Source: an uncultured virus (IMG/VR IMGVR_UViG_3300034358_000003)
Taxonomy: Duplodnaviria > Heunggongvirae > Uroviricota > Caudoviricetes
IMG/VR virus record: IMGVR_UViG_3300034358_000003
DNA length: 36,997 nt
Direction: 5' to 3' (one strand)
The first letter of the stretch is position 1; each line of letters starts with the position of its first letter. The position numbers were made by a program, and so were the translations under genes. Below the pieces are notes generated by a model that made no database searches, was not told the origin of the DNA, and saw only the letters and a list, made by a program, of their open reading frames with translations. Below, piece after piece: positions 6,812 through 30,647 of this stretch.

Positions 6812-7033
6812 TCAAGCAGTTTTCAAAGCTGTAATTACAGCATTCAACTTCGTCTTGATTTCATTCACAAGCGTCAGTGCTGTAGGCAGGTCAGTAGCGT
6901 TTGGAGACGTTACAGCAGCCAGAGCAGCGATAGCAGCGGCGTTAGCAGCAGAGTCAGTGAAGGCTCCAGCTTTGATCCCTTCGATCAAGCCAAGCTGTGC
7001 AATCAGTTGGTATTGTGCAGTAGTAGAAAGCAT
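6812..7033 (-). CDS. Small Ala-rich hypothetical protein (possibly virion-associated)
   Basis: 73 aa, GAGGA RBS, amphipathic helical C-terminus. Confidence 0.65.
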   Translation of the reverse strand: MLSTTAQYQLIAQLGLIEGIKAGAFTDSAANAAAIAALAAVTSPNATDLPTALTLVNEIKTKLNAVITALKTA

Positions 7034-7079
7034 TTTGATTCCTCATGTATTAGATTGGTGCCAGAATGGCAGAAACGAG

Positions 7080-7099
7080 AAAACCCTCACAAGGAGGGT
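7080..7099 (-). terminator. Probable terminator at distal end of tRNA array
   Basis: ACCCTC-CTTGT-GAGGGT followed by TTT. Confidence 0.5.
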
Positions 7100-7164
7100 A
7101 ATCTGACAAGACAGACTGCTTGGGTAGCACGTAGCTACATAGAGGTGGGTCAGTTGTCTGTGTT

Positions 7165-7238
7165 TGGTTGAAGATACCCTCACTGGATCGCAAGTCACAC
7201 GATTAGGTGCTTGGGGCCGGGGTTTAACCGCCATCTTC
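7165..7238 (-). ncRNA. CCA-ended non-cloverleaf RNA (tRNA-sized)
   Basis: GAAGATG/TATCTTC 7-bp terminal stem, then AACCA; internal ATCGTG/TGCGAT hairpin; no T-loop. Confidence 0.4.
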
Positions 7239-7242
7239 TAAT

Positions 7243-7318
7243 TGGTGCATTCTCATGGTATCGATCCATGTCATCTGGGTTTTCAAGCCAGTGCTTCTAC
7301 CTAGTTAGCTTAGAATGC
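7243..7318 (-). tRNA. tRNA-Phe(GAA)
   Basis: GCATTCT/AGAATGC acceptor, loop TTGAAAA, encoded CCA; C31-C39 mismatch. Confidence 0.85.
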
Positions 7319-7322
7319 GAAT

Positions 7323-7416
7323 TGGTGGCCCATTCAGTTCATTGTGCTTTCGTCGTCTCAAGGAACGCTGTATAACACAAACATCTGCCAGATGCTGAAT
7401 ATATTATTTTAGGCCA
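7323..7416 (-). ncRNA. CCA-ended non-cloverleaf RNA
   Basis: TGGCCTA/TGGGCCA stem then CCA; inner TTCAG/CTGAA and TGTGTT/AGCACA pairings; no T-loop. Confidence 0.45.
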
Positions 7417-7421
7417 TTGTT

Positions 7422-7493
7422 TGGAGCAGAATGTCAGAATCGAACTGACCTCATCAGCTTGGAAGGCTGGGCGCTCACCTTGAGCAATCCTGC
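7422..7493 (-). tRNA. tRNA-Gly(TCC)
   Basis: Loop CTTCCAA, GTTCGATT T-loop, U73-CCA. Confidence 0.9.
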
Positions 7494-7500
7494 TTTTGTT

Positions 7501-7575
7501 TGGAGTATCTTGTTGGAATTGAACCAACCTAACCGGGTTTGCAATCCGGCACCTTAGCCTCTCGGACAAAGATAC
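7501..7575 (-). tRNA. tRNA-Cys(GCA)
   Basis: Loop TTGCAAA, GTTCAATT T-loop, U73-CCA. Confidence 0.9.
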
Positions 7576-7583
7576 ATTATGTT

Positions 7584-7661
7584 TGGTAGGGCACCTCGGA
7601 CTCGAACCGAGAAGCTCCTGATTCTAAGTCAGGAAGGTAGACCAATTCCCTTCAATGCCCC
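7584..7661 (-). tRNA. tRNA-Leu(TAG), short variable loop
   Basis: CCTGA-CTTAGAA-TCAGG; GGTTCGAGTCC; CCA; no long variable arm. Confidence 0.85.
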
Positions 7662-7676
7662 AATAGTCTTCTAAAT

Positions 7677-7749
7677 TGGTGTGAGGCTGGGTACTGACCC
7701 CAATCCTTCGTTTCACAGACGAAGTTCCTAACCATCGAACTACCTCACC
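7677..7749 (-). tRNA. tRNA-His(GTG), atypical
   Basis: TTCGT-CTGTGAA-ACGAA; T-loop GTCAGTA is non-canonical; 5' end overlaps HNH stop codon. Confidence 0.65.
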
Positions 7750-8159
7750 ATTGTTCTCAATTTGTGGTGTTCACGTCTATGACAGTTTGAACACAGCACA
7801 ATACATTTTCTTATCTCAGCACGTAAGACTTCAAGAGAACCACCAATCAACGAAGCTGGGTTGGCGTCCTTTCCATCAGGGTCTACATGGTGCAGATCAA
7901 GCACTACGGTGTCAGCTTCTCCACAGTGGGAGCACTTACACATCCGTTTATACCTGTCAACCAAACCCTTGTTACGAGCTTTAATTGTTTGCCTTGTTGC
8001 CTTGACTTTGGCTCTGCGTGTTTCAGAGCCAGCGTACCAACCAATGTTTCCAGCCTTATTGCAAGCTTTGCATCGGTTTTGATAGCCGTCAGGCTTAGAT
8101 GATGATTTATAGAACTCTGTCTTTGGTTTGTCAGTTTCACACTTACTACAGAACTTCAT
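7740..8159 (-). CDS. HNH endonuclease (free-standing, homing-type)
   Basis: CxxC pairs, LDLHHVD and LCSNCHRREH motif; embedded in tRNA array. Confidence 0.85.
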   Translation of the reverse strand: MKFCSKCETDKPKTEFYKSSSKPDGYQNRCKACNKAGNIGWYAGSETRRAKVKATRQTIKARNKGLVDRYKRMCKCSHCGEADTVVLDLHHVDPDGKDANPASLIGGSLEVLRAEIRKCIVLCSNCHRREHHKLRTMVR

Positions 8160-8304
8160 CACGCATCTTAATTTCTTCTTGAGCTTCTTTGAATGCTTGC
8201 TTATCCATCAGTTTAGGCTTCCAGTTCAAGTGATCACAACAAGGGCAGTACGAGCCATTGCGTTTCAATCTTGCTATCCTTGGCTCTCTGATTCTAACCT
8301 TCAT
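8146..8304 (-). CDS. Small basic hypothetical protein (52 aa, CPCC)
   Basis: AGGAG RBS before ATG 8304; overlaps HNH start. Confidence 0.6.
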   Translation of the reverse strand: MKVRIREPRIARLKRNGSYCPCCDHLNWKPKLMDKQAFKEAQEEIKMRDEVL

Positions 8305-8321
8305 CTTAGCACTCCTATATT

Positions 8322-8395
8322 TGGTGGACCGTCGGGGAGTCAAACCCCGCCTTCTACGGTGCAAGCGTAGCGAACTATCGAAATTCTTACAGCCC
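8322..8395 (-). tRNA. tRNA-Ala(TGC)
   Basis: CTACG-CTTGCAC-CGTAG; G3.U70 identity pair; CCA. Confidence 0.85.
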
Positions 8396-8399
8396 AAAT

Positions 8400-8473
8400 T
8401 GGTCTAGATGGGTGGAGTTGAACCACCGCCACAGGCTTCCAAAGCCAGTACGCTACCGTAACGCTTCATCTAG
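8400..8473 (-). tRNA. tRNA-Pro(TGG)
   Basis: Loop TTTGGAA, GGTTCAACTCC, CCA. Confidence 0.9.
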
Positions 8474-8495
8474 TTAAATCATTTTACATCTTAAT

Positions 8496-8584
8496 TGGTG
8501 CGTCATGGTCGGAATCGAACCACGCAGTCTTGGACACCGGGTTTACAGCCCAGCGGGAATCCCAGTCCCCATAAATCACGACGC
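8496..8584 (-). tRNA. tRNA-Tyr(GTA), irregular D region
   Basis: CTGGG-CTGTAAA-CCCGG; long variable region; GGTTCGATTCC; CCA. Confidence 0.75.
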
Positions 8585-8590
8585 TTTGTT

Positions 8591-8667
8591 TGGCAGGTAA
8601 TAGAGGATTCGAACCTCCCATCTTGTGATTAACAGTCACAGACCAACACCTAGTCAGATCATTACCT
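8591..8667 (-). tRNA. tRNA-Asn(GTT)
   Basis: TGTGA-CTGTTAA-TCACA; G73-CCA. Confidence 0.85.
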
Positions 8668-8736
8668 ATAATTCTGATAGAGACTATATTTAGACAGCAC
8701 ACTCTATCTGGCTGTACCCGTGGGGAGCACGGTGTT

Positions 8737-8792
8737 TGGAGACGGGATTAGAACGGCTCTACGTTCACATTAAGCTGGCATGTAGCCCCATC
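8737..8792 (-). ncRNA. 56-nt CCA-ended mini-RNA
   Basis: GATGGGG/TCCCGTC 7-bp stem + T + CCA; inner GAACG/CGTTC hairpin. Confidence 0.4.
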
Positions 8793-8798
8793 ATTGTT

Positions 8799-8874
8799 TG
8801 GTTGCGGACGTGAGAATCAAACTCACCGTATTCAGCTTATGAGGCTGCTGTGTCCATCAGTTCACCTGACCGCA
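8799..8874 (-). tRNA. tRNA-Met(CAT) (elongator or Ile2 type)
   Basis: Loop CTCATAA; paired 1-72 and no three G-C pairs, so not an initiator; CCA. Confidence 0.8.
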
Positions 8875-9246
8875 TTAAATCTTGTACTCCGAATATTTGT
8901 CGTTGCCAACTATGATCTGATGCTTCACTATTATCTCAGTGCTTGGTATCCAATACTCAGAACCATCAGCAGTCAATACGTACAAAATATCGCAAGAGTT
9001 ACTGTCAAAGTTTTTATGAGTGTACAGCGAAGAACTCTTCAAGTCAACCCTGTATCCACCATATTTACCTTCACATCTGGAAGTCTTTACCTGAACTCGT
9101 TTCAAACTGCCGTCATCAATAATCAAGTCATAGGACTGTGAGTCATTGAGAGGCAAGCTTACAGTGTAACCCTTCATGGTTGAAAAGGCTATACAGCGTC
9201 CCATACCAACATTACCCTGCATCTTTGTGTTTTCCTGAGACAGCAT
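8875..9246 (-). CDS. PD-(D/E)XK endonuclease (homing-type)
   Basis: P..DSQSYDLIID..RVQVKT motif; AGGAG RBS; within tRNA array. Confidence 0.8.
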   Translation of the reverse strand: MLSQENTKMQGNVGMGRCIAFSTMKGYTVSLPLNDSQSYDLIIDDGSLKRVQVKTSRCEGKYGGYRVDLKSSSLYTHKNFDSNSCDILYVLTADGSEYWIPSTEIIVKHQIIVGNDKYSEYKI

Positions 9247-9260
9247 AAGACTCCTTCATT

Positions 9261-9334
9261 TGGTCGCCAGAGAAGGTAACGCTCCTTCGTTTCGGAGTTA
9301 TCAGCTCCACGTTCTACTTTTGAACTATCCGGCA
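9261..9334 (-). tRNA. tRNA-Ile(GAT)
   Basis: TGGAG-CTGATAA-CTCCG; T-loop AGCGTTA atypical; CCA. Confidence 0.8.
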
Positions 9335-9341
9335 ATTTGTT

Positions 9342-9416
9342 TGGTAGTCACTAGTGGGATCGAACCACTCTAAAAGGCTTCGTAGACCTTTGCCTAATCC
9401 AATCGGCCAAGCGACT
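9342..9416 (-). tRNA. tRNA-Arg(ACG)
   Basis: AAGGT-CTACGAA-GCCTT; GGTTCGATCC; CCA. Confidence 0.9.
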
Positions 9417-9422
9417 ATTGTT

Positions 9423-9496
9423 TGGTGCCCCATCACAGAATCGAACTGCGTTCTCAGCGTTACAAAGGCCGAGTAATACCAATATACTAAAAGGGC
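9423..9496 (-). tRNA. tRNA-Thr(TGT)
   Basis: Loop TTTGTAA, GTTCGATT, CCA; C31-C39 mismatch. Confidence 0.85.
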
Positions 9497-9599
9497 GGAA
9501 TTTGGTTTGTTGTAGTGGGTCATTAAAGCCACTGCTGTTGTTCCAGACCAACTCACTCATCTGGCAGACTCAAGCTCCGAATTGCCTTCGGGCTGGATT

Positions 9600-9675
9600 T
9601 GGCGGCTCATAGGGAATTCGAATCCCTCCTTCCTGATAGACAGTCAAGCGTGCTAACCGCTAACACTAATGAGCC
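9600..9675 (-). tRNA. tRNA-Asp(GTC)
   Basis: CTTGA-CTGTCTA-TCAGG; G73-CCA. Confidence 0.9.
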
Positions 9676-9679
9676 ATGT

Positions 9680-9756
9680 TGGTACTCCCACAGGGATTCG
9701 AACCCTGTTCCCCTGATTGAAAGTCAGGAATCCTAGACCAGATAGACGATGGGAGC
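9680..9756 (-). tRNA. tRNA-Glu(TTC)
   Basis: CCTGA-CTTTCAA-TCAGG; GGTTCGAATCC; CCA. Confidence 0.9.
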
Positions 9757-9764
9757 ATTAATCT

Positions 9765-9893
9765 TTAGTTGCCAGAAACAGGATGCTTATCCTTGTTGCG
9801 GCCTTTGTTCGGATGACGACCTTTGCTGTCTTTCAAGCGTGTCTTGTCAACCGGAGCATGTTCTTTTGTTGCATCGTATGGACGTTGTGCCAT
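9765..9893 (-). CDS. 42-aa basic peptide (MAQRPYDATK...PVSGN), not in ORF track
   Basis: AAGGAG RBS and its own promoter; manual translation. Confidence 0.65.
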   Translation of the reverse strand: MAQRPYDATKEHAPVDKTRLKDSKGRHPNKGRNKDKHPVSGN

Positions 9894-9926
9894 CTCTTTC
9901 TCTCCTTTTGTGTAATTCATATGAGT

Positions 9927-9955
9927 ATTAAAACATGGGATTCAGTATCTGTCAA
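9927..9955 (-). promoter_or_regulatory. Internal sigma70-type promoter in tRNA array
   Basis: TTGACA-17 nt-TTTAAT with extended TG. Confidence 0.65.
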
Positions 9956-9987
9956 CCACTATTTTAAATTCTTTTGCACTATCTTGT

Positions 9988-10064
9988 TGGTAGCCCTACT
10001 TGGATTCGAACCAAGTCTATCAACTTAGAAGGATGATGTGCTAATTCCCTTACACTATAAGGCC
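9988..10064 (-). tRNA. tRNA-Arg(TCT)
   Basis: Loop CTTCTAA; GGTTCGAATCC; CCA. Confidence 0.9.
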
Positions 10065-10072
10065 ATATAAAT

Positions 10073-10150
10073 TGGCGGGCCAGCTAGGAATCGAACCCAG
10101 TCCGCAAGGATTTGGAATCCCGCATGCATTTGCCATAACAACCCAGACCC
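10073..10150 (-). tRNA. tRNA-Trp(CCA)
   Basis: Loop TTCCAAA; GGTTCGATTCC; G73-CCA. Confidence 0.8.
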
Positions 10151-10151
10151 T

Positions 10152-10382
10152 TTATTTCGTTTGTTGCACTTTGCTGATCAAGCCAAGATTTTTGTGGAGT
10201 TGATCATATCGTTGCTTCTCTTCTGCGTCCATCATATCAACGTGGTACTCTCTGCAACATTCACAGTAGAACACACTATTGAGACGGTAGCAAGCAGTTT
10301 TTAAAGCTTTCAGTCTGTGCGGTGTGAGCTTTGCCAGCTCTACTTCATCAAACTGCACATCCATTGCTTCGCTAGATTTCAT
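10152..10382 (-). CDS. Hypothetical protein (YCECC motif)
   Basis: AGGAG RBS before ATG 10382. Confidence 0.65.
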   Translation of the reverse strand: MKSSEAMDVQFDEVELAKLTPHRLKALKTACYRLNSVFYCECCREYHVDMMDAEEKQRYDQLHKNLGLISKVQQTK

Positions 10383-10495
10383 GATCAACTCCTATTAGAT
10401 TCGAAGGAGACATTTATAACACGCAGTCTCCAGTGCGTCAAGTCATGTGTTGGTTACATGACAACATCCCAAGGCGCTTGAAGCTTCAGGTTGTT

Positions 10496-10614
10496 TGGTT
10501 TGAATGACTCAAGGTTACGAGTAGTGGACACTGCCCCTCCTGTAGTCGTTCTGCTGTTTTATCTCCACAACAATAGCAGACACTTCGGCTATAAGGCAAG
10601 GCCAGTCATTCAAA
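10496..10614 (-). ncRNA. 119-nt rod-like CCA-ended RNA
   Basis: Perfect 11-bp terminal stem TTTGAATGACT/AGTCATTCAAA directly followed by CCA; nested TGCCTT/GGGGCA and TCTGCT/AGCAGA stems. Confidence 0.55.
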
Positions 10615-10616
10615 TT

Positions 10617-10692
10617 TGGAAGAGGATGCTGGAATCGAACCAGCCTAAACGGAGTCAAAGTCCGGTGCCTAACGCCAATCGGCCAACCCTCA
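10617..10692 (-). tRNA. tRNA-Gln(TTG)
   Basis: Loop CTTTGAC; GGTTCGATTCC; CCA. Confidence 0.85.
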
Positions 10693-10839
10693 ATTAATTA
10701 GATCCGAGAGCGTCATCCAGATGGCCATCCTTCAGTTGCTCTCTAGTCACGTTTCATCCGCTTTGTGAACCACACCCTTTCAGGTGCCCGCCGAGGCTTG
10801 GGAGGGAATCGAACCCTAACGCGATTACTTTGTGATGTT

Positions 10840-10913
10840 TGGTGCTTCGTGAAGGAATTGAACCTCCGTCTGCTGCGTGTAAAGCAGCGGCCCTACCATT
10901 AGACGAACGAAGC
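10840..10913 (-). tRNA. tRNA-Val(TAC)
   Basis: GCTGC-TTTACAC-GCAGC; CCA. Confidence 0.9.
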
Positions 10914-10921
10914 ATGTATCT

Positions 10922-11008
10922 TGGTGGGGATAATAGGAGTCGAACCTACATGACCTCACGGCCCACAGGGTTTGAACCTGCTGCGAATACCAGTTCCGCC
11001 ATATCCCC
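10922..11008 (-). tRNA. tRNA-Leu(CAA)
   Basis: GCAGG-TTCAAAC-CCTGT; long variable arm; CCA. Confidence 0.9.
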
Positions 11009-11015
11009 GTTTGTT

Positions 11016-11105
11016 TGGAGGCGAGTGTGGGATTCGAACCCACGGAGCCATTTCTGACTCGCTAGTTTTCTAAACTAGAGCAATCGTCCACTCTACCAAC
11101 TCGCC
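11016..11105 (-). tRNA. tRNA-Ser(AGA)
   Basis: CTAGT-TTAGAAA-ACTAG; long Ser-type variable arm; GGTTCGAATCC; U73-CCA. Confidence 0.85.
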
Positions 11106-11207
11106 GGAATTTAGATCAGCTTAATTGGGACTCTTACCCCTGCAATGCATCAAGACTCGCTGACTCATTCTTGTGCAGTTTTTCATATCGGGAGCGACCC
11201 GAGCATT

Positions 11208-11295
11208 TGGCAGTAGATGTCAGATTCGAACTGACGGGACTGTTACATCCTACGGATTAGCAATCCGTTGCTTTCGGCCTCTCAGCCAATCTACT
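11208..11295 (-). tRNA. tRNA-Ser(GCT)
   Basis: ACGGA-TTGCTAA-TCCGT; long variable arm; G73-CCA. Confidence 0.9.
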
Positions 11296-11300
11296 ATGTT

Positions 11301-11426
11301 TGGTACGACAGAGTGGAATCGAACCACCCATCCGTTCCCCGCTAAAGGAACCTTAATGCATAAAAGACCCATACCACGCCTCAACCTCGTTTCGAACCGA
11401 CGAAGGATTGTGTTGCATTCTGCCGT
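11301..11426 (-). ncRNA. 126-nt tRNA-like RNA with canonical acceptor/T arm but expanded D region
   Basis: ACGGCAG/CTGTCGT + A + CCA; GGTGG-TTCGATT-CCACT; no 7-nt anticodon loop; second GGTTCGAA motif inside. Confidence 0.65.
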
Positions 11427-11432
11427 ATTGTT

Positions 11433-11508
11433 TGGTGAAACGCCAAGGAATCGAACCTTGCAAACTCAGATTAAAAGTCTGATGCCTAAACCGATCGGCC
11501 TGCGTCTC
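11433..11508 (-). tRNA. tRNA-Lys(TTT)
   Basis: TCAGA-CTTTTAA-TCTGA; GGTTCGATTCC; CCA. Confidence 0.9.
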
Positions 11509-11514
11509 AATTGT

Positions 11515-11832
11515 TTACTTAGCGAAGTTGAAGACTGGGGCCAATGGTTTATCCGTTAGCTCATCCGGTTCATCAGTTCCTTTAGCCAGTTGAATCTTCA
11601 GTGCCACATCGGCTTTGATAAGATTCGTGTACATATCAACCAATACTTGTTTCATTCGGAAACGTTCTTTAGCTGGAATGGACTCATCATCGCTGATTTC
11701 GATCATCTTGTCAAGCGATTGTCCATAAATCTTTTTAAGAATTTTGAGTCCTGTTTCAAACTCTGTCTTTGTCACCCCACGTGCGGCCACTTCAGCCTTT
11801 GTTGGACGACCACCTTTATTCTTCTGTTCCAT
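11515..11832 (-). CDS. Putative terminase small subunit
   Basis: 105 aa, N-terminal KGGRPTK motif, helical core; same strand upstream of terL; GAGG RBS. Confidence 0.5.
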   Translation of the reverse strand: MEQKNKGGRPTKAEVAARGVTKTEFETGLKILKKIYGQSLDKMIEISDDESIPAKERFRMKQVLVDMYTNLIKADVALKIQLAKGTDEPDELTDKPLAPVFNFAK

Positions 11833-17929: not shown

Positions 17930-18376
17930 ATGTGCCTGAACAACCTCGAAACCCGTGCCATGAAATTCGCCATTGAAGCGCATGGTGATCAGATGTACGG
18001 CGATCATCCTTACAGTTACCATTTATCCCAAGTTGTGGATAACGTCCTGATTCGTAAGTTTGGCGATCCTCTTCTATCCACCTACGTTGCTGTGGCTTGG
18101 CTGCATGACACAATGGAAGACTGTGGCACTACCTTCAAGCAGATTGAGGATGAATTCGGTCTTGCTATTGCGTACTCTGTACAGAAGCTAACCAAGTGTG
18201 AAGATATTGGTTATGAATATTACCTGAAAGATATCATTGGTCACGCTATTGCACGTGAAGTGAAAATCTGCGATACTATGGCCAATCTGACGGAGAGCTT
18301 CAAGTCTGGGAACACAAAAGGCTTGAACAAGTACCCGCGACAACTGGACGTATTGATTCAAGGAGGTTTTAAATGA
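17930..18376 (+). CDS. RelA/SpoT-type HD hydrolase (small alarmone hydrolase-like)
   Basis: AH.DQ, PY..H, LHDTMED, V..LT, VK..D..AN motifs. Confidence 0.8.
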   Translation: MCLNNLETRAMKFAIEAHGDQMYGDHPYSYHLSQVVDNVLIRKFGDPLLSTYVAVAWLHDTMEDCGTTFKQIEDEFGLAIAYSVQKLTKCEDIGYEYYLKDIIGHAIAREVKICDTMANLTESFKSGNTKGLNKYPRQLDVLIQGGFK

Positions 18377-18942
18377 GCGAAATTTGGTTTACAAGTGACC
18401 TGCACTTCGGGCACAAGAATATCATTGAATATTGCGAACGTCCTTGGACTTTCGAAGAGCAAGACGATGAGATTGTTCGTCGTTGGAACTCCCGCGTTGG
18501 TCTGATGGATCAAGTGTTCCACTTGGGTGACTTCACCTTCGCTGGTCGCAAGAAGTCCAACAAGATCATTGAGTTGATCAAGAGCCTTAACGGTCAGATC
18601 ACCTTCATCAAGGGCAACCACTGCCAAGATGGCCTGTGGGAAGACATCGAAAAGGCAAATCTTGCTCACGTTCTGGAAGTATGCCACTACAAGGAAATCA
18701 CAATCGACCGTACCAAAGTCGTGATGTGTCACTATCCTTTCGAGACTTGGAACAAGGCACACCACGGTGCATGGCACCTGCATGGTCACTGTCACGGTAG
18801 TCTGCCTCCACGTGGTAAACGTCTTGACGTAGGCATTGACAACCACCCGGATCGTCAGGTATTCTCTCTGGCTGAAATCAAGATTCACATGGCAAAGCAA
18901 GAGTTTGTTGCTAACGACCATCACACAGGAGAGCGTGAATGA
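18373..18942 (+). CDS. Calcineurin-like metallophosphoesterase
   Basis: SDLHFGH, LGD, GNH, CHYP, LHGHCH motifs. Confidence 0.9.
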   Translation: MSEIWFTSDLHFGHKNIIEYCERPWTFEEQDDEIVRRWNSRVGLMDQVFHLGDFTFAGRKKSNKIIELIKSLNGQITFIKGNHCQDGLWEDIEKANLAHVLEVCHYKEITIDRTKVVMCHYPFETWNKAHHGAWHLHGHCHGSLPPRGKRLDVGIDNHPDRQVFSLAEIKIHMAKQEFVANDHHTGERE

Positions 18943-19145
18943 AAGTCTACGTTGCAGTAAATCTCGACTTGGGGTGGGACAACGTAATTGGTGTGTTCGA
19001 TTCCTACGAAAAAGCTTATGATGTTTGCCGCCCGGCACCTGAAGACCTTGAAGACCCAGAGGATGCTGAATGGTATTTGAGTCGGGTTAACGAACGAACT
19101 GGGATGTACGAGCTGCATCACATTCACACTAAGGAGGTCCAATAA
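18939..19145 (+). CDS. Hypothetical protein (LGWD family, copy 1)
   Basis: ATGA overlap, GGAG RBS. Confidence 0.7.
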   Translation: MKVYVAVNLDLGWDNVIGVFDSYEKAYDVCRPAPEDLEDPEDAEWYLSRVNERTGMYELHHIHTKEVQ

Positions 19146-19366
19146 TGGCAAGAATGACTGTTGACACAGACGCAAGAGCAGTGCCTGAAGTTCAGATGGG
19201 CACGCTTTTGTACTGGAAAGAAGACCCAACTTATGTTGTAATGTGCACTGGCATGCTGATGGGCGATGAGTTTCCGGGCGTTGCCCTCGACACTGGTGCT
19301 TATGGCGAACAGTGGATCATTGATGAATACTCTGTCTTCCAAGGCAAAGTGACTCTGGAGCAGTAA
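19145..19366 (+). CDS. Hypothetical protein
   Basis: AGGAGG RBS. Confidence 0.75.
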   Translation: MARMTVDTDARAVPEVQMGTLLYWKEDPTYVVMCTGMLMGDEFPGVALDTGAYGEQWIIDEYSVFQGKVTLEQ

Positions 19367-19368
19367 TC

Positions 19369-19542
19369 ATGAAAGTTTGGGTTGTGACAAACGTCGAGCT
19401 TGGCTGGGATTGCATCGTTGGTATTTTCGATCCAGCCAGCTTAACCAAGCAAGAAATTGAAGAAAGATTTCCCAAACGGAGTGGTTATATAGTACACTGG
19501 GGTCCGCATACAGTTCACAATGATTTTGAGGAGTTTGAATAA
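19369..19542 (+). CDS. 57-aa hypothetical protein (LGWD family, copy 2), not in ORF track
   Basis: GGAG RBS; MKVWVVTNVELGWDCIVGIFD. Confidence 0.7.
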   Translation: MKVWVVTNVELGWDCIVGIFDPASLTKQEIEERFPKRSGYIVHWGPHTVHNDFEEFE

Positions 19543-20444
19543 TGTTTGAAGCACTGATTAAGGCTGGACTGGTAAAGCAGAAGCGTTATGAGAATGGCCT
19601 TTCGGTATTCAAGTACGCTCGGAAGGTGTTCTACGACGCGCTCTGGAACACTGATCCTCTACTGTTGGAAGCCCGTGGGATTGTCATTGATGATGCTGGC
19701 AATAAGGTGATCTGGCCTTTCACCAAGGTCTTCAACTACAAAGAGAACAACGCTGGCGTAAACCTGATGATGGATACCCCAATCATCGCTCCACGTAAAG
19801 TGAACGGTTTCATGGCAGCATGTCGTTACTGGAACGGTGAGTTGATTGTTTCGACAACTGGCTCTCTGGACTCGGACTTCGCTGTTCTGGCTCGCTCTTA
19901 CATTGAGAAGTTGAACGGTATTGAGCGTGACTCGACCAATATGACACTACTCTTTGAAATCTGTGACCCTTCAGACCCTCACATTGTCGAGGAAGAAGCT
20001 GGTGCATACTTGATCGGGGCACGCCTCATGCAAGGCTGTGACCATGAAGGTGAGATGTTGAACGAAGCTCAGCTTCATGGCTACGCTGAATCACTTGGTG
20101 CTAAACGCCCTGAAGTATTCCGTGGGACGTTTGGACAGCTTTGGCATATGGTGCGTGAGTGCCGACACGAAGGTTGGATGGTGATTCTCGCTGAGACTGG
20201 TGAAACAGTGATGAAAATCAAGTCGCCACATTACCTATCCAAGAAATTCCTCATGCGAATGAGTGACAAGAAAGTGGACAACATGTTCGACTGCAAGGAA
20301 GAATTCATGAAAACGTTGGACGAAGAGTTCTACGCCATCGTGAGTTATATCACTCGCTGGTGGGACAAAGAGAAGTGGAAAAACACTTCTGAAGCTGATC
20401 GCCGTGCTGTGATCGAAAAATACTTTGAAAAGGAAGCTCAATAA
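19542..20444 (+). CDS. RNA ligase (T4 Rnl1-like)
   Basis: EARGIV, PFTKVFNY, KVNG (motif I), TLLFE, PHIV, EGW, KIKS..Y motifs. Confidence 0.85.
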   Translation: MFEALIKAGLVKQKRYENGLSVFKYARKVFYDALWNTDPLLLEARGIVIDDAGNKVIWPFTKVFNYKENNAGVNLMMDTPIIAPRKVNGFMAACRYWNGELIVSTTGSLDSDFAVLARSYIEKLNGIERDSTNMTLLFEICDPSDPHIVEEEAGAYLIGARLMQGCDHEGEMLNEAQLHGYAESLGAKRPEVFRGTFGQLWHMVRECRHEGWMVILAETGETVMKIKSPHYLSKKFLMRMSDKKVDNMFDCKEEFMKTLDEEFYAIVSYITRWWDKEKWKNTSEADRRAVIEKYFEKEAQ

Positions 20445-20860
20445 TGATGAAATTGCGTTTGGATACTGAAGGCTTACGTGCACTGATTGCCAGCAACCCT
20501 GAACTGGAAATTGAAATCGGCAAGGAGGTTATGAACAACATCACCTCTGAGCAGTTGAAGAATAAGGTTTCTGCTCGTATCGATGAAGTGTTGAAGTCTA
20601 TGGTTACTAAGGGTGGTTCTTATTACCAGCCTGTGTACGAAATCAAAGACAAGAACTTCTTGGCTGCAATCGCCGCTGCTTCGAAATCTGTTGTTGACAA
20701 AGCTCTGGACGAAGCTGTGAAGCTTCAGATTGCTGAGACTGTTCTGTCTGCTGTCGAAGCTGAGCGTATCCGTCTGCGTGCAGAGTTAAAAGCCCTGCTG
20801 AAAGAAATCGTCACCCCAGAAATGGCACGTGACATTATGCGGGAGAAAATCTTGCTGTGA
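20444..20860 (+). CDS. Helical hypothetical protein
   Basis: AGGA RBS, coupled to RNA ligase gene. Confidence 0.75.
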   Translation: MMKLRLDTEGLRALIASNPELEIEIGKEVMNNITSEQLKNKVSARIDEVLKSMVTKGGSYYQPVYEIKDKNFLAAIAAASKSVVDKALDEAVKLQIAETVLSAVEAERIRLRAELKALLKEIVTPEMARDIMREKILL

Positions 20861-21249
20861 TGCTCTATCTCGTTCGTGGCTTGCCGGGTTCTGGCAAGTC
20901 CACCTTCGCAAAAGAGTTGGCAGATGGTTTGGATTGCAATCACTTTGAGCATGACAAGTGTCTGTACACCGAGGAAGGCGAGTACCTTTGGACTGAAAAG
21001 CGAATGGCTTACGCCTATCGTCAATGTCTGCGGGATACTGAAGCGACGATGGCTGAAGGTGAGCCTGTCGTTGTCTCCAACGTGTTCCCAACGGCGAAGT
21101 CGTTAAAGAACTATCGCAAACTGGCTGAGAAGTATGGTCATCGTGTGACGTACATCGTCGTAGAGAATCGTCGTGGTGGAACCAACATCCATGATGTGCC
21201 TCAAGAGGCGTTGGACAACATGCGGGAAGCTTTCCAAGTTTCTCTGTAA
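20860..21249 (+). CDS. P-loop kinase (polynucleotide-kinase-like)
   Basis: RGLPGSGKST, VVVSNVF, HDVP motifs. Confidence 0.85.
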   Translation: MLYLVRGLPGSGKSTFAKELADGLDCNHFEHDKCLYTEEGEYLWTEKRMAYAYRQCLRDTEATMAEGEPVVVSNVFPTAKSLKNYRKLAEKYGHRVTYIVVENRRGGTNIHDVPQEALDNMREAFQVSL

Positions 21250-21255
21250 AACCAG

Positions 21256-21292
21256 TTGACACCGTGGGCCACTCCTGACAGAATGGCCCCAC
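21256..21292 (+). promoter_or_regulatory. Repeat-family promoter 1 (PRPS-like gene)
   Basis: TTGACA-17-CAGAAT-GGCCCCAC. Confidence 0.65.
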
Positions 21293-21312
21293 TTAAACAA
21301 ATGAGGTGCAAC

Positions 21313-22191
21313 ATGACTGACTTTAACGAAAACCTGTTCTACACTCTGGATGGTCGCCAACCACGAACCAGCATTTCCGTCATGACCTTTCCGGGTGGCG
21401 AAGTGGGCGTGAACATCAATACTGGTAGTTTGGACGCTTGGAATCCTCAAGCTGCGAATGTGAAATACATCGACCTGTTCGCAAAGATTCAGAACAGTGA
21501 TCAACTGATGGCGATGTTCCTTGCCACTGATGCCCTGCGTCGTGTTTACCCGTATGCAGTGATTGACCTGACGATACCCTACTTCCCGTATGCCCGCCAA
21601 GACCGCGTATGCAACGCTGGAGAGGCTTTGAGCGTCAAGGTGGTAGCTACACTCATCAACTCGATGAACTACGCCTCTGTGACCGTTGTAGACCCTCACA
21701 GCCCTGTGCTTGTAGCTGCTCTGGACAAAGTTTTTGTTGTAGAACAGTCCAAGGCATTCCAGAAGGTTAAACAAGACTGGAGCAAATGGACTATTGTCGC
21801 TCCTGATGTTGGTGCGATCAAGAAGACTGAGGACTTCGCAAAGCTGGTCGGTGCCAAGGATGTGCTTTACTGCAACAAGAAGCGTAACCTTGCAGATGGT
21901 AAGATTCTGGGCATGACTATCCTCAACCCAGAGATTCTGACTGTGGGAGCCAGCCTGCTTGTTCTTGACGACATCTGTGATGGTGGCCGCACCTTTATTG
22001 AGGTTGCCAACGCTATCCAACTGGCCTCGCCAAGAGTTGACGGTGTGATGGACTACTCCATTGAACTGGCAGTCACTCACGGTATCTTCTCTAAGGGTGT
22101 TGGGGTGTTGACAGACGTGTACGACCACGTATACACTACAGACTCACTGCCACAAATGGCACATTCCAAACTGACTGTTGTCGAACTGTAA
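21313..22191 (+). CDS. Ribose-phosphate pyrophosphokinase-like protein (probable NARP1 Adps)
   Basis: FPGGE, PYFPYARQDR, DPHS, APD.GA, DDICDGGRT, THGIFS motifs. Confidence 0.9.
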   Translation: MTDFNENLFYTLDGRQPRTSISVMTFPGGEVGVNINTGSLDAWNPQAANVKYIDLFAKIQNSDQLMAMFLATDALRRVYPYAVIDLTIPYFPYARQDRVCNAGEALSVKVVATLINSMNYASVTVVDPHSPVLVAALDKVFVVEQSKAFQKVKQDWSKWTIVAPDVGAIKKTEDFAKLVGAKDVLYCNKKRNLADGKILGMTILNPEILTVGASLLVLDDICDGGRTFIEVANAIQLASPRVDGVMDYSIELAVTHGIFSKGVGVLTDVYDHVYTTDSLPQMAHSKLTVVEL

Positions 22192-22201
22192 GGAGCTACA
22201 C

Positions 22202-23050
22202 ATGAAAAAGATTATCGCTGGTGTTCTGGGTTTGCTGATGATGGGTACGGTCGTTGTTGAAGCTGGGGCAGCATCTCGCGTCTCTTCTTCCTCACGATCC
22301 AGCTATAGTTCTTCGTCTCGGGCGTCGTCCAGTCCAAAGAGCTATTCTGCCCCAAAGTCTTATTCGGCTCCAGCGGTGTCCGCTCCGAGCCGTTCAACAA
22401 GCAGCAATCCCGGCCTAAAAGCCCTTGGCTTCTCCAAGCCTGCACCAATCCAGACGGTAAGTCGTCCAAGTGCAGGCGTGTCGTCTAGTCGTCCAACCTC
22501 GGTACAATCGACAAGTTGGTTTGGCAAGAAGTCTGTAAGCTCGGCACCTGTATCATCGTATCGTGCCCCTGCACGTCAAGTGAGTAGCCCTGTTTCGTAC
22601 CGTTCTAATCGCTCGGTGTACAGCAGCCCGCGAACGACTGTGGTGCAACGAAACTATTACAGCAATTCGTATGGAGGCTACAATGGATATAATCGGGGTT
22701 ATGGTGGTTACGGTTACAACCCTTATGGTGGGTACAACTCTGGTGGAAGCAGCTTCCTATATGGTGCTGCGGGGGCGATTGGCGGTGTAATGCTGTACAA
22801 CGCTCTGACCACGCCACATCACAATAGTGGCGTAAGCTCTGGGGCTACTGCTGCACAGATTGAACAAGCAAAAACTGACCAGCGTATAGAAGACAAACTG
22901 GACATGCAAAACCAGCTTCTGATGCAACAACGTCAACCAACGGTAGCGGCAGCTCCTGTGGTGATGCAACAGCCGCAATGCTACTTGCCACCAGATGCTC
23001 CGCTTATGATGAACCCACAATTTTACTGCGGAGTAAACAATGCTAACTAA
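22202..23050 (+). CDS. Exported low-complexity Ser- and Gly/Tyr-rich protein
   Basis: Signal-peptide-like MKKIIAGVLGLL..AGA; Ser-rich tract; YGGY repeats; Gly-zipper helix; AAGGAG RBS. Confidence 0.75.
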   Translation: MKKIIAGVLGLLMMGTVVVEAGAASRVSSSSRSSYSSSSRASSSPKSYSAPKSYSAPAVSAPSRSTSSNPGLKALGFSKPAPIQTVSRPSAGVSSSRPTSVQSTSWFGKKSVSSAPVSSYRAPARQVSSPVSYRSNRSVYSSPRTTVVQRNYYSNSYGGYNGYNRGYGGYGYNPYGGYNSGGSSFLYGAAGAIGGVMLYNALTTPHHNSGVSSGATAAQIEQAKTDQRIEDKLDMQNQLLMQQRQPTVAAAPVVMQQPQCYLPPDAPLMMNPQFYCGVNNAN

Positions 23051-23195
23051 ACGCGAAACGAATCACCTTGGTCATTTTCTGCTGACCCTATTCATCTGGC
23101 CTTGGCTGTTCGCTTGGATTATGTTCTACATGTCCAACCGTCGCCACAACGATGAAGTTGATCGAATGATCTGGCAATCGCAACAAAAAGGTTGA
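23040..23195 (+). CDS. 51-aa membrane peptide, not in ORF track
   Basis: GGAG RBS; NHLGHFLLTLFIWPWLFAWIMFY hydrophobic stretch. Confidence 0.65.
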   Translation: MLTKRETNHLGHFLLTLFIWPWLFAWIMFYMSNRRHNDEVDRMIWQSQQKG

Positions 23196-23227
23196 CACGG
23201 TGGGCCAATCTGATAAGATGGCCCCAC
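23192..23227 (+). promoter_or_regulatory. Repeat-family promoter 2 (Nampt-like gene)
   Basis: TTGACA-16-TAAGAT-GGCCCCAC. Confidence 0.7.
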
Positions 23228-23254
23228 ACAAACGAGACACAAAGGAGATTCACA

Positions 23255-24862: not shown

Positions 24863-24868
24863 TGTATC

Positions 24869-24893
24869 GCCCCTCTTCGGAGGGGCTTCTTTT
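24869..24893 (+). terminator. Intrinsic terminator
   Basis: GCCCCTC-TTCG-GAGGGGC-TTCTTTT. Confidence 0.8.
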
Positions 24894-24907
24894 CAAAGGA
24901 GGTTAAG

Positions 24908-25033
24908 ATGGAATGGTTGTTCGGGTTGTTCGCCCTGTGTGCTGTTGGGGCTTTGATTGACGATATCCACTCAAAGTGGCACAAGCGTGAAATGGTTAAG
25001 GCTAAACACTACAAGGAGTTGATCTACACATGA
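24908..25033 (+). CDS. 41-aa membrane peptide, not in ORF track
   Basis: AGGAGG RBS; MEWLFGLFALCAVGALI. Confidence 0.6.
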   Translation: MEWLFGLFALCAVGALIDDIHSKWHKREMVKAKHYKELIYT

Positions 25034-25254
25034 AACTACTCTGCACGTACTTTGCTTCTGGCATCCGTTATCACTGGGGTCAAGAGGTTACGTTCCACAG
25101 GATTTTCCACGTAACTCATATTGGTCATGCTGATCCTGTGTGGGCTGCGAATTGGATTCAAAGTGAAGTTGAGAAGAAAGGTGGGAGCGTAGTCTTCACA
25201 CAGTTCAATATGGTTGGTGCGGCACAGGAGGTAAGTGATGACTTTGAAGTATAA
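25030..25254 (+). CDS. Hypothetical protein
   Basis: ATGA overlap, AGGAG RBS. Confidence 0.65.
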   Translation: MKLLCTYFASGIRYHWGQEVTFHRIFHVTHIGHADPVWAANWIQSEVEKKGGSVVFTQFNMVGAAQEVSDDFEV

Positions 25255-25720
25255 AGTTGGTGATATTGTGAACGCAATTCTGAGAGGTGAAGTGGTCGCA
25301 ATAGGCCATCAAGCCAACTGCTTCAACACGATGAATTCTGGTGTAGCTAAGGCCATCAAAGCTCGACTACCTTGTGCATGGGAAGCTGACCAGCTCACTT
25401 TGAAGGGTGATCTTGACAAACTTGGTGGAACCTCCATAGGCCAACTGCGTGATGAAGCTGGACAACCTACAGGATTGGTGTACAATCTCTACGGTCAGTA
25501 CAACTACGGTTACGACTCCAAAGGCTACACCAATTATGAAGCTCTACGTGGTGCTTTGATGCACATGCGTGATGACCTTCTAACTGGCAACAACCTCTGG
25601 AATGTTGGATTCCCTAAAATTGGTGCTGGACTTGGTGGTGGTGACTGGGATACAATTGCTCGCATCATTGATGAAGTATTCGATGACCGCTTCAACGTCA
25701 CCATCTACACACTGCAATAG
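25238..25720 (+). CDS. Macrodomain (ADP-ribose binding/hydrolase)
   Basis: GDI, HQANC...M.SGVAKAIK, NLYGQ, FPKIGAGLGGGDW motifs. Confidence 0.9.
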   Translation: MTLKYKVGDIVNAILRGEVVAIGHQANCFNTMNSGVAKAIKARLPCAWEADQLTLKGDLDKLGGTSIGQLRDEAGQPTGLVYNLYGQYNYGYDSKGYTNYEALRGALMHMRDDLLTGNNLWNVGFPKIGAGLGGGDWDTIARIIDEVFDDRFNVTIYTLQ

Positions 25721-28027: not shown

Positions 28028-28034
28028 ACCCACT

Positions 28035-29165: not shown

Positions 29166-29188
29166 CACATCAAAACAAAGGAGGATAT

Positions 29189-29839: not shown

Positions 29840-29843
29840 ATAG

Positions 29844-29880
29844 TTGACAACATGAGGGCCAGTCGTTAAGATGGCCCCAC
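29844..29880 (+). promoter_or_regulatory. Repeat-family promoter 3 (terC)
   Basis: TTGACA-17-TAAGAT-GGCCCCAC. Confidence 0.7.
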
Positions 29881-29907
29881 ACAAACAAACTGAAAGAGGA
29901 AACAAAA

Positions 29908-30621: not shown

Positions 30622-30647
30622 ACAAACTACTAAAGAGGAACTTGATA

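What the first reader, a model, noticed from the sequence alone, without database searches (positions are those of the whole stretch)
7056..11426. A set of CCA-terminated non-tRNA RNAs interleaved in the tRNA array
Seen: five minus-strand elements with no cloverleaf have 5' and 3' ends that pair into a 7-11 bp stem followed by (N)CCA. They lie at 7165-7238, 7323-7416, 8737-8792, 10496-10614 and 11301-11426, with a weaker one at 7056-7108. They carry the same short AAC/AAT 3' trailers as the real tRNAs and fill the slots between tRNAs almost exactly. Known: RNase P and tRNA 3'-trimming act on acceptor-like stems ending in CCA, and T4/T5 tRNA clusters yield stable non-tRNA species. Inference: the phage uses tRNA processing to release a panel of distinct small RNAs, possibly decoys or inhibitors of tRNA-targeting defences, synthetases or RelA. 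tRNA scanners would miss them. Best candidate for an undescribed system here.
Basis: partly seen in the sequence, partly recalled or inferred. Interest (0 to 1): 0.85.

Follow-up and report, generated by a model that had tools for sequence, protein, structure and literature searches.

The report
Non-decoding tRNA-like RNAs in phage array
A Pseudomonas phage carries, between its tRNA genes, several tRNA-shaped or tRNA-ended RNA genes that cannot read codons; they are new examples of the unexplained 'stable RNAs' long known in phages T4 and T5.

Summary
The window is an Otagovirus-like Pseudomonas phage with a minus-strand tRNA operon (about 11510-7050). This occurs in 5 of 8 spacers, against a mean of 0.16 (maximum 3) in 2000 shuffles.

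Three are conserved structured RNA families absent from Rfam:
- E5, 11301-11426: 10 members, 19 of 28 pairs compensatory. It is a tRNA with a hairpin inserted in the D-loop and an invariant UUAGCG loop.
- E1, 7165-7239: 5 members, a four-helix cloverleaf-like fold.
- E4, 10496-10614: 6 members, with an 11-bp terminal stem rewritten by compensatory changes.

E2 (7323-7416) and E3 (8737-8792) are orphans with no relatives found. The weak sixth element (7056-7108) is the operon terminator, and its CCA is not conserved.

Relatives' contigs lack E1, E3, E4 and E5 exactly, so these behave as cassettes. Encoded CCA is not constant within families (6/10, 2/5, 3/6).

The kind is already known: T4 rnaC/rnaD and T5 RNA1/2/3/I/III/IV are annotated stable RNAs of unknown function. 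Release by tRNA processing is inferred, and a decoy role is untested.

The parts
11301..11426 (-). E5: a 126-nt tRNA-derived RNA. It has a 7-bp acceptor stem, a 5-bp D-like stem whose loop carries an inserted hairpin with a second T-loop-like motif, an anticodon-like arm with an invariant UUAGCG loop, a 5-nt variable region, a canonical T arm, discriminator A and CCA.
   Evidence: 10 family members (alignment A3). 93.5% of cells are paired, against 37-47% when partners are slid. 19 of 28 pairs carry compensatory changes, and 0 of 500 shuffles reach this. Model R1 scores members at 84-132 bits and ordinary tRNAs at 15-32 bits. A relative's contig skips 11297-11428.
10496..10614 (-). E4: a 119-nt RNA with an 11-bp terminal stem, a long irregular arm, a small 3' hairpin, a 23-nt invariant 3' segment, then CCA.
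   Evidence: 6 full-length members in two clades. The terminal stem differs in sequence but is kept at 11-12 bp in all 6, with compensatory changes in 8 of 11 pairs. Model R2 finds only these members plus one partial copy. A relative's contig skips 10494-10614. No match in 50,697 phage records.
8737..8792 (-). E3: a 56-nt orphan with a 7-bp terminal stem (2 G-U) + U + CCA. A T-armless cloverleaf-like fold lies 0.4 kcal/mol above the MFE.
   Evidence: No homolog found by blastn or nhmmer. A relative's contig skips 8733-8794.
7323..7416 (-). E2: a 94-nt orphan with a 6-7-bp terminal stem + (A)CCA, an internal loop, a second 6-bp stem and two hairpins.
   Evidence: No homolog found. No clean indel joint in relatives.
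7165..7239 (-). E1: a 75-nt four-helix (cloverleaf-like) RNA. It has a 7-bp acceptor-like stem (A.A top pair in the window), a D-like arm with a conserved 7-nt loop, a long anticodon-like arm whose loop varies in length and sequence, and a 4-bp T-like arm, then A + CCA.
   Evidence: 5 members (A2). 24 pairs, 7 of them with compensatory changes. 96.7% of cells are paired, against 30-46% when slid. ARAGORN does not call it in any of the 4 relatives. A relative's contig skips 7164-7241.
7056..7108 (-). E0: this is not a CCA RNA. It holds the intrinsic terminator of the tRNA operon (7083-7099) plus a small hairpin that ends in CCA only in this phage.
   Evidence: Terminator scan. z-score -3.3. The first 39-44 nt are conserved, but the CCA is absent in 12 of 12 relatives.
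7243..11508 (-). The tRNA array that carries the elements. ARAGORN tRNAs. Rfam adds Phe (7243-7318) and Met (8799-8875). There are also weak Tyr-like (8496-8584) and Trp-like (10073-10150) genes. Every gene ends in CCA followed by A.

Best explanation
The five elements are RNA gene cassettes of the phage's tRNA operon. They encode non-decoding RNAs that keep a tRNA-type end: an acceptor-like stem, a discriminator, and here an encoded CCA.

They are transcribed within the polycistronic tRNA precursor. The host tRNA-maturation enzymes then cut them out: RNase P at the 5' side, and endonucleolytic cutting in the A-rich trailer plus exonucleolytic trimming back to CCA at the 3' side. The tRNA-like end serves as the processing and stability handle. 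The conserved loops are the working surfaces. These are the invariant UUAGCG loop and second T-loop of E5, and the 23-nt invariant segment of E4.

E5 and E1 descend from or mimic whole tRNAs. E4 is a rod-like RNA that borrows only the end.

They belong to the same functional kind as T4 rnaC/rnaD and T5 RNA1/2/3/I/III/IV. My best guess for their role is binding or titrating a tRNA-recognising factor of host or phage.

Shown here: the structures, their conservation, their cassette behaviour and their non-tRNA status. Inferred: the transcription, the processing, the stability and the role.
For: - The stem + CCA architecture occurs in 5 of 8 spacers, against a mean of 0.16 in 2000 shuffles and 0 of 8 on the other strand.
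- E5: 10 members, 19 of 28 pairs compensatory, loops invariant while stems vary. All 10 copies are preceded by ...CAAU with U at -1.
- Model R1 aligns true tRNAs end to end with E5.
- E1: 5 members, 7 compensatory pairs spread over four helices.
- E4: the 11-bp terminal stem is kept in 6 of 6 members despite 8 changed pairs. In L111 a copy without CCA abuts the 5' end of tRNA-Leu directly, so RNase P cleavage of that tRNA would make its 3' end.
- Contigs of relatives lack E1, E3, E4 and E5 exactly, with 5-8-nt ambiguous junctions.
- One promoter-like site lies upstream of the array (11975-11948). The only strong terminator lies at its end (7099-7083).
- T4 and T5 annotate the same kind of RNA in their tRNA clusters. 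The T5 RNAs have 5-12-bp terminal stems, and RNA3 and RNAI end in NCCA.
- Context only: the window encodes an Rnl1-like RNA ligase, an AAA_33 kinase, a metallophosphoesterase and an HD protein. This looks like a tRNA-repair set.
Against: - There is no expression or end-mapping evidence. The metatranscriptome run holds the region only as an 11.3-kb contig, which may be DNA carry-over.
- MFE z-scores are not significant.
- E2 and E3 have no homolog in 50,697 phage records or in any locus held. They rest on one sequence each.
- Encoded CCA is kept in only 6 of 10 E5, 2 of 5 E1 and 3 of 6 E4 members. CCA is therefore not the defining feature.
- The E1 structure was derived from the same five sequences on which its pairs were counted.
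- The E4 covariation comes from two clades, so it reflects few independent events.
- The shuffle criteria were chosen after seeing the elements.
- Nothing found bears on a target or a role.
Confidence: 0.65

Rival explanations
1. The elements are decaying tRNA genes or recombination debris. They would be former tRNA cassettes that lost their anticodon loops and survive only because arrays shuffle cassettes. They would be processed incidentally and have no function.
For: - E2 and E3 are orphans with no relatives.
- The E1 anticodon-like loop varies in length (5-8 nt) and sequence.
- CCA comes and goes within families.
- The arrays are mosaic and carry homing-type endonuclease ORFs: a PD-(D/E)XK ORF at 8875-9246 and annotated HNH genes in relatives.
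- A tRNA 3' fragment lies in spacer 10693-10839.
- A relative has a tRNA with a 2-nt anticodon.
Against: - E5, E1 and E4 keep their helices through many compensatory changes, while specific loops stay invariant across phages only 65-98% identical in a neighbouring protein. Neutral decay would not give this.
- E4 has no tRNA-like interior, and neither the tRNA-like model R1 nor Rfam matches it.
Confidence: 0.2
2. The elements are cis-acting processing punctuation, like the t-elements of plant mitochondria. The tRNA-like ends would exist only to recruit RNase P and 3' nucleases, so that neighbouring tRNAs or mRNAs get defined ends. The excised pieces would be by-products.
For: - The elements sit at the junctions of the array.
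- E4 lies between tRNA-Gln and a small ORF. E1 and E0 lie just before the downstream structural genes.
- The earlier notes of this scan e1-5958069 and e1-5908373 proposed this for other phages. These are unchecked leads, not evidence.
Against: - Neighbouring tRNAs carry their own RNase P determinants and are often only 4-8 nt apart without any such element.
- The ORF behind E4 has its own promoter-like and ribosome-binding sequences.
- Punctuation does not explain the invariant internal loops of E5 or the 23-nt invariant block of E4.
Confidence: 0.1
3. The stems and the CCA are chance coincidences in A/C-rich spacers.
For: Individual 7-bp stems with G-U pairs are common. Single spacers gave a hit in 1-4% of shuffles. 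MFE z-scores are weak.
Against: Five of 8 spacers gave a hit, and no shuffle out of 2000 reached 5. Three families show covariation. Relatives show exact cassette indels.
Confidence: 0.05

Closest known systems
Phage T5 stable RNAs of the tRNA region (RNA1 and RNA2 'tRNA-like stable RNA with unknown functions', RNA3 'putative tRNA-like RNA', RNAI, RNAIII, RNAIV, RNA2H; RefSeq NC_005859 annotation)
   Same: They are interleaved with tRNA genes on the same strand and are 73-172 nt long. Their 5' and 3' ends pair into 5-12-bp stems. RNA3 and RNAI end in NCCA. They do not decode, and their function is unknown.
   Different: There is no sequence or profile similarity. blastn of the elements hits no T5 record. 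R1 scores T5 RNA2 no better than ordinary tRNAs (15 bits), and R2 finds nothing. The host and phage family also differ. The T5 RNAs were seen as RNAs in infected cells according to the record's wording, whereas ours were not.
Phage T4 rnaC (species 1) and rnaD (species 2) RNAs
   Same: They lie directly behind tRNA-Arg in the tRNA cluster. rnaD is followed by an AAUUA trailer after ...CACCA. rnaC has a canonical T arm, a long hairpin where the D arm would be, and an arm with a 6-nt loop. That overall layout is the same as E5. Their function was still called unknown in 2022 (PMC9697503, passages read).
   Different: There is no homology. R1 gives 20.8 bits on part of rnaC, in the range of ordinary tRNAs, and R2 gives nothing. 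The rnaC acceptor-like stem is imperfect and no CCA is encoded. rnaD shows no terminal stem.
Canonical tRNA (Rfam RF00005)
   Same: E5 keeps the acceptor stem, a D-like stem, a 5-nt variable region, a canonical T arm, discriminator A and CCA. E1 keeps a four-helix junction of tRNA size.
   Different: Neither has a 7-nt anticodon loop. E5 has a 6-nt or 8-nt loop, and the E1 loop varies from 5 to 8 nt. E5 carries an insertion of about 38 nt in the D-loop. None of the elements reaches any score with RF00005 or ARAGORN.
Non-decoding viral or cellular tRNA mimics released by tRNA processing: murid herpesvirus 4 vtRNAs, mascRNA, plant-mitochondrial t-elements
   Same: They work alike in principle: a tRNA-like fold recruits RNase P or RNase Z, and the product is not used in decoding. 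This rests on recalled knowledge. PMC2888160 and PMC1920247 were seen only as search listings.
   Different: Those are eukaryotic systems with no sequence relation to these elements, and there the CCA is added after transcription.

Membership tests
Canonical tRNA | Detected by tRNA covariance or heuristic models (Rfam RF00005 gathering score 29 bits; ARAGORN) | tested here: not met
   None of E1-E5 is called by ARAGORN or matched by RF00005, even at E up to 10. E1 homologs are not called in 4 of 4 relatives.
Canonical tRNA | A 7-nt anticodon loop with U33 and a purine at position 37 | tested here: not met
   Covariation fixes the E5 loop at 6 nt (UUAGCG), or at 8 nt if the Y-G pair opens. The E1 loop is 5-8 nt and not conserved. 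E2, E3 and E4 have no such arm.
Canonical tRNA | A 7-bp acceptor stem + discriminator + CCA stacked on a T arm with a T-loop | tested here: met
   Met for E5 only: 7 bp + A + CCA with a GGUUCGAUUCC T arm. E1 has 6-7 bp and a 4-bp arm with a 5-nt loop. E3 has no T arm in either candidate fold.
Stable RNAs of phage tRNA clusters (T4 rnaC/rnaD, T5 RNA1/2/3/I/III/IV) | Encoded inside a phage tRNA gene cluster, on the same strand, between tRNA genes | tested here: met
   for the window. for T4 and T5.
Stable RNAs of phage tRNA clusters (T4 rnaC/rnaD, T5 RNA1/2/3/I/III/IV) | Not a decoding tRNA, but with tRNA-like or paired termini | tested here: met
Stable RNAs of phage tRNA clusters (T4 rnaC/rnaD, T5 RNA1/2/3/I/III/IV) | Accumulates as a discrete stable RNA in infected cells | not testable with these tools
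   Only assembled contigs of public runs were available, and these cannot show RNA ends or levels.
Stable RNAs of phage tRNA clusters (T4 rnaC/rnaD, T5 RNA1/2/3/I/III/IV) | Sequence or profile homology to the T4 or T5 RNAs | tested here: not met
   No T4 or T5 record appears among the blastn hits. R1 and R2 give no specific hit on L117 or L118. Membership is therefore by kind, not by descent.
tmRNA | A tRNA-like domain plus a tag reading frame, detected by ARAGORN or RF00023 | tested here: not met
   ARAGORN finds no tmRNA in the window. RF00023 gives only an 11-nt chance match at E = 10.
Any curated Rfam family (including Y RNA-like, 6S and riboswitches) | A match to one of 4227 covariance models | tested here: not met
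   No match on the minus strand for E1-E5 at E up to 10. The only overlap is a plus-strand 15.7-bit chance match at 10523-10577.

The most novel reading that the evidence does not exclude
E5 is a new, widespread family of phage tRNA mimics. It would be a tRNA remodelled by a second T-loop domain in its D-loop and by an invariant loop whose first five bases (YUUAG) copy positions 32-36 of the phage's own tRNA-Leu(UAG) anticodon loop. Its job would be to engage one specific tRNA-directed host factor. Examples are an anticodon nuclease or another tRNA-targeting defence, as a decoy or inhibitor, or a synthetase that charges it for a use outside decoding. If so, the E1 and E4 cassettes would be further members of a swappable anti-defence RNA panel. 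The 50-year-old question of what the T4 and T5 stable RNAs do would then get a testable answer in Pseudomonas phages that differ naturally by single cassettes.
Probability: 0.15. Interest if true: 0.8.

Novelty: new member of a known kind. Interest (0 to 1): 0.5.

Why it matters
Stable non-tRNA RNAs in phage tRNA clusters have been known in T4 and T5 for decades. They were still called RNAs of unknown function in 2022 (PMC9697503, passages read).

This work adds three sequence-defined families that are supported by covariation and absent from Rfam. The families are found in Pseudomonas phages and in metagenomic phages.

E5 is present in five cultured isolates (PE09, PN09, M5.1, COT4, UNO-G1W1) and is unannotated in all of them. 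Natural relatives differ by exact presence or absence of single cassettes.

Together this gives a tractable system for asking what such RNAs do. It also gives models that annotation pipelines could use, so that these genes stop being missed or read as spacers.

Tried and rejected
- **Rfam.** Searches at gathering and E-value thresholds gave nothing for the elements.
- **blastn against 50,697 phage records.** E4 and E2 had no match. For E1 and E3 only the flanking conserved blocks matched.
- **Pattern scans of viral contigs for E2 and E3.** Homologs of E2 and E3 in IMG/VR therefore remain unsearched. Coordinate-based nhmmer on all held loci found only the window itself.
- **Whole-genome search.** No genome is held for this window.
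- **Public reads.** The RNA-library run X2 covers the region with one 11.3-kb contig. This shows neither transcription nor ends. Parts without cover in X3 and X4 mean nothing by themselves.
- **Thermodynamic z-scores.** They do not discriminate.
- **Homology of E5 or E4 to T4 rnaC/rnaD or the T5 RNAs.** Rejected.
- **E5 as a decoding tRNA-Leu or a quadruplet decoder.** Considered because the loop contains UAG and can be drawn as 8 nt. I rejected it as the main reading. Covariation favours a 6-nt loop, position 37 would be a pyrimidine, and the phages that carry E5 also carry a normal tRNA-Leu(UAG).
- **E0 as a CCA RNA.** Rejected.
- **Literature.** The searches found no paper describing these elements in Otagovirus-like phages. 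The T4 genome review (PMC150520) is not held. The older T4 and T5 papers were not seen, so statements about them rest on the RefSeq annotations and on recall.
- **Earlier notes of this scan.** They were used only as leads.

Full report
**What the window is.** megablast of 7000-11600 finds 62 phage records. Sixty are Pseudomonas phages of the Otagovirus/Flaumdravirus group, including VCM, Kremar, PPSC2, M5.1, REC, PE09 and phiPsa374. None of them covers 80% of the query, so the region is mosaic. ARAGORN finds 19 tRNA genes, all on the minus strand between 7422 and 11508. Rfam adds tRNA-Phe (7246-7318) and tRNA-Met (8802-8874), and there are weak Tyr-like and Trp-like genes. One strong promoter-like site lies upstream (11975-11948). 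The only strong terminator-like hairpin on this strand inside the region lies at 7099-7083. The array therefore reads as one operon with small ORFs inside it.

**The observation.**
In each the MFE fold pairs the two ends.
- All 24 tRNA or tRNA-like genes and all five elements end in CCA followed by A.
- I used criteria written after seeing the data: a helix of at least 7 bp with at most 2 G-U, a 5' strand within 8 nt of the spacer start, then 0-2 nt and CCA. By these, 5 of the 8 non-tRNA spacers hold such an element. In 2000 dinucleotide-preserving shuffles the mean was 0.16 spacers and the maximum was 3 (2 of 2000). The plus strand of the same spacers gives 0 of 8.
- MFE z-scores are unremarkable, from -0.36 to -1.50. 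Stability alone would not have flagged these elements.
- No Rfam family matches any of them at E up to 10.

**The sixth, weak element (7056-7108).** It contains the terminator hairpin. Its first 39-44 nt are conserved in relatives. The CCA is absent in 12 of 12 relatives inspected. It is not part of the set.

**How relatives were gathered.** I fetched 13 annotated phage arrays. I fetched 21 further loci through the conserved 105-aa ORF that precedes tRNA-Lys, 10 from IMG/VR and 11 from metagenomes. Two pattern scans of IMG/VR added more loci.

**E5 (11301-11426, 126 nt).**
- *Members.* blastn finds it at 75-79% identity, unannotated, in PE09, PN09, M5.1 and COT4. The stem scan found it in UNO-G1W1 with a wholly different acceptor sequence. 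nhmmer and the pattern scan bring the family to 10 distinct members.
- *Structure.* It has a 7-bp acceptor stem. A 5-bp stem sits at the D position. Its loop starts with invariant A14 and holds an inserted hairpin with a T-loop-like GGUUCGAAAC (8 of 10 members) and an invariant GG. It then has a 6-bp anticodon-like stem closing an invariant UUAGCG loop, a 5-nt variable region, and a canonical T arm.
- *Covariation.* On this structure 93.5% of cells are paired, against 37-47% when partners are slid by 1-3 columns. Nineteen of 28 pairs carry compensatory changes, and 0 of 500 shuffles reach the observed values.
- *Relation to tRNA.* A covariance model of the family (R1) scores members at 84-132 bits and a distant one (L092) at 44.8. 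It aligns ordinary tRNAs end to end at 15-32 bits. E5 is therefore a remodelled tRNA, not a cloverleaf-less RNA.
- *Why it is not a decoder.* The loop is 6 nt, or 8 nt if the closing Y-G pair opens. The same phages also carry a normal tRNA-Leu(UAG).
- *Flanks.* All 10 copies follow a tRNA's CCA and a ...CAAU leader, with U at -1. Six of 10 encode CCA. M5.1, L014, L085 and L063 do not.

**E1 (7165-7239, 75 nt).**
- It has no match among phage records. Four IMG/VR relatives carry it.
- RNAalifold gives four helices that meet without linkers. These are a 7-bp acceptor-like stem, a 5-bp D-like arm with a conserved 7-nt loop, an 8-bp arm whose loop varies from 5 to 8 nt, and a 4-bp T-like arm.
- Seven of 24 pairs have compensatory changes. 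96.7% of cells are paired, against 30-46% when slid. One caveat: there are only five sequences, and the structure was derived from them.
- ARAGORN calls it in none of the four relatives.
- In three relatives it lies before tRNA-Phe rather than after it, and there it has no CCA. CCA is encoded in 2 of 5 copies.

**E4 (10496-10614, 119 nt).**
- It has no match among phage records. Five further full-length copies and one partial copy occur in IMG/VR contigs of 10-353 kb.
- The copies form two clades. Their 11-12-bp terminal stems have different sequences but pair in 6 of 6 copies, and 8 of 11 pairs changed on both sides. That amounts to few independent events.
- A 23-nt 3' segment is invariant.
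- The three copies that follow tRNA-Gln end in CCA. The other three do not. One of those (L111) abuts the 5' end of tRNA-Leu(AAG), and another lies about 90 nt behind tRNA-Lys.
- Model R2 finds nothing else, including in T4 and T5.

**E2 (7323-7416) and E3 (8737-8792).** No relative was found by blastn against phage records, by blastn-short, or by nhmmer against every locus held. A scan of IMG/VR for them could not be run. E3 can fold as a T-armless cloverleaf 0.4 kcal/mol above its MFE. E2 has a 6-7-bp closing stem, a second stem and two hairpins. They are candidates only.

**Cassette behaviour.**
- Contigs of relatives in two public runs skip 7164-7241 (E1), 10494-10614 (E4), 8733-8794 (E3) and 11297-11428 (E5). 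Each joint has 5-8 bases that fit both sides, which means short direct repeats at the CCA-trailer junctions. E2 shows no clean joint.
- The array also holds a PD-(D/E)XK endonuclease ORF. Relatives hold annotated HNH genes.

**Comparison with what is known.**
- The T4 RefSeq record annotates rnaD (119 nt) and rnaC (139 nt) directly behind tRNA-Arg. rnaC has a canonical T arm, a long hairpin at the D position and an arm with a 6-nt loop, which is the same layout as E5.
- The T5 record annotates RNAI, RNAIII, RNAIV, RNA2H, RNA1, RNA2 and RNA3 inside its tRNA region as stable or tRNA-like RNAs of unknown function. They have 5-12-bp terminal stems, and RNA3 and RNAI end in NCCA.
- There is no sequence or profile homology to our elements.
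- The kind is therefore known, while the families are new.
- Earlier notes of this scan describe the same kind in other phages. One of them, e1-4046105, pointed me to the T5 annotation, which I checked myself.

**Mechanism.**
- *Shown:* the structures, their conservation, their non-tRNA status, their cassette indels and their operon context.
- *Inferred from established knowledge of bacterial tRNA maturation:* co-transcription with the tRNAs, 5' cleavage by RNase P, 3' trimming to CCA, and stability through the tRNA-like end. RNase P recognises the acceptor/T stack and RCCA, and 3' ends are made by endonuclease plus exonucleases.
- *Unknown:* the role. I commit to tRNA mimicry directed at a tRNA-binding factor as the most likely role, with low confidence.
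- *Context:* the window encodes an Rnl1-like RNA ligase, an AAA_33 kinase, a metallophosphoesterase and an HD protein, which look like a tRNA-repair set. It also encodes an RF-1-domain protein and NAD-salvage genes. This shows investment in countering host attack on tRNA and NAD. It is context, not evidence.

**Verdict.** Three of them are bona fide conserved RNA families. The claim of an undescribed system does not hold, because T4 and T5 have the same kind of RNA.

Noticed in passing
window 8668-8736 (-): A 69-nt non-coding block lies directly upstream of tRNA-Asn. It is 93-100% identical in 44 phage records, including a Pectobacterium phage, which makes it more conserved than the flanking tRNAs. 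It folds into two hairpins (z-score -2.2), has no terminal stem or CCA, and is unannotated. Its 3' end would be made by RNase P cleavage of tRNA-Asn.
   Followed up: partly
window 7109-7164 (-) and 7083-7099 (-): A conserved 56-nt block (82-100% in 8 of the first 13 relatives fetched, partial in 2 more) is followed by the conserved operon terminator. In some relatives it directly follows tRNA-Phe.
   Followed up: partly
window 10693-10839 (-): The spacer between tRNA-Val and tRNA-Gln has its first 100 nt conserved at 96-98% in Kremar, phiPsa374 and PPSC2. It contains a tRNA 3' fragment (T arm plus CCCA). VCM and M5.1 annotate a small ORF in this slot.
   Followed up: no
window 9497-9599 (-): A 103-nt spacer between tRNA-Asp and tRNA-Thr ends in CCA + AAU but has no terminal stem. 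It is 98% identical in PHB09. A relative's contig skips 9498-9596.
   Followed up: no
window 17930-21249 (+): This looks like a tRNA-repair gene set: an HD-domain protein, a metallophosphoesterase, an Rnl1-type RNA ligase (19542-20444) and an AAA_33 kinase (20857-21249).
   Followed up: no
window 32997-33560 (+): A 187-aa protein carries an RF-1 (peptidyl-tRNA hydrolase, ArfB-like) domain plus a weak match to the ribosomal L7/L12 C-terminal domain.
   Followed up: no
window 21256-25720 (+): NAD-related genes: a PRPP-synthetase-like protein, an NAPRTase-family protein (556 aa) and a Macro-domain protein.
   Followed up: no
window 27972-31223 (+): A tellurite-resistance-type cluster sits in a phage: TelA, a TerF-like vWA protein, TerC and TerD.
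   Followed up: no
window 7243-7318, 8799-8875, 8496-8584, 10073-10150 (-): ARAGORN misses four tRNA genes. Rfam finds Phe and Met. The Tyr-like and Trp-like genes are only weak Rfam matches, though relatives annotate tRNA-Tyr and tRNA-Trp at the same positions.
   Followed up: partly
window 8875-9246 (-) and 7740-8162 (-): A PD-(D/E)XK endonuclease ORF and a cysteine/histidine-rich ORF with no Pfam match lie inside the tRNA array. They are likely homing-type endonucleases.
   Followed up: no
L010:938-1160 (-), phage KIL4: Rfam finds a group I intron (68.9 bits) next to the terminase region. The adjacent CDS in the record is annotated as joined from two pieces.
   Followed up: no
L014:10091-10164 (+): ARAGORN reports a tRNA of unknown type with a 2-nt anticodon between tRNA-Arg and tRNA-Ile of a close relative. 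This is another non-decoding tRNA look-alike.
   Followed up: no
L113 (IMG/VR contig of 53 kb): This locus holds a copy of only the invariant 3' part of E4. It is joined to a different 5' part that contains a T-loop-like GGGUUCGAAACC.
   Followed up: no
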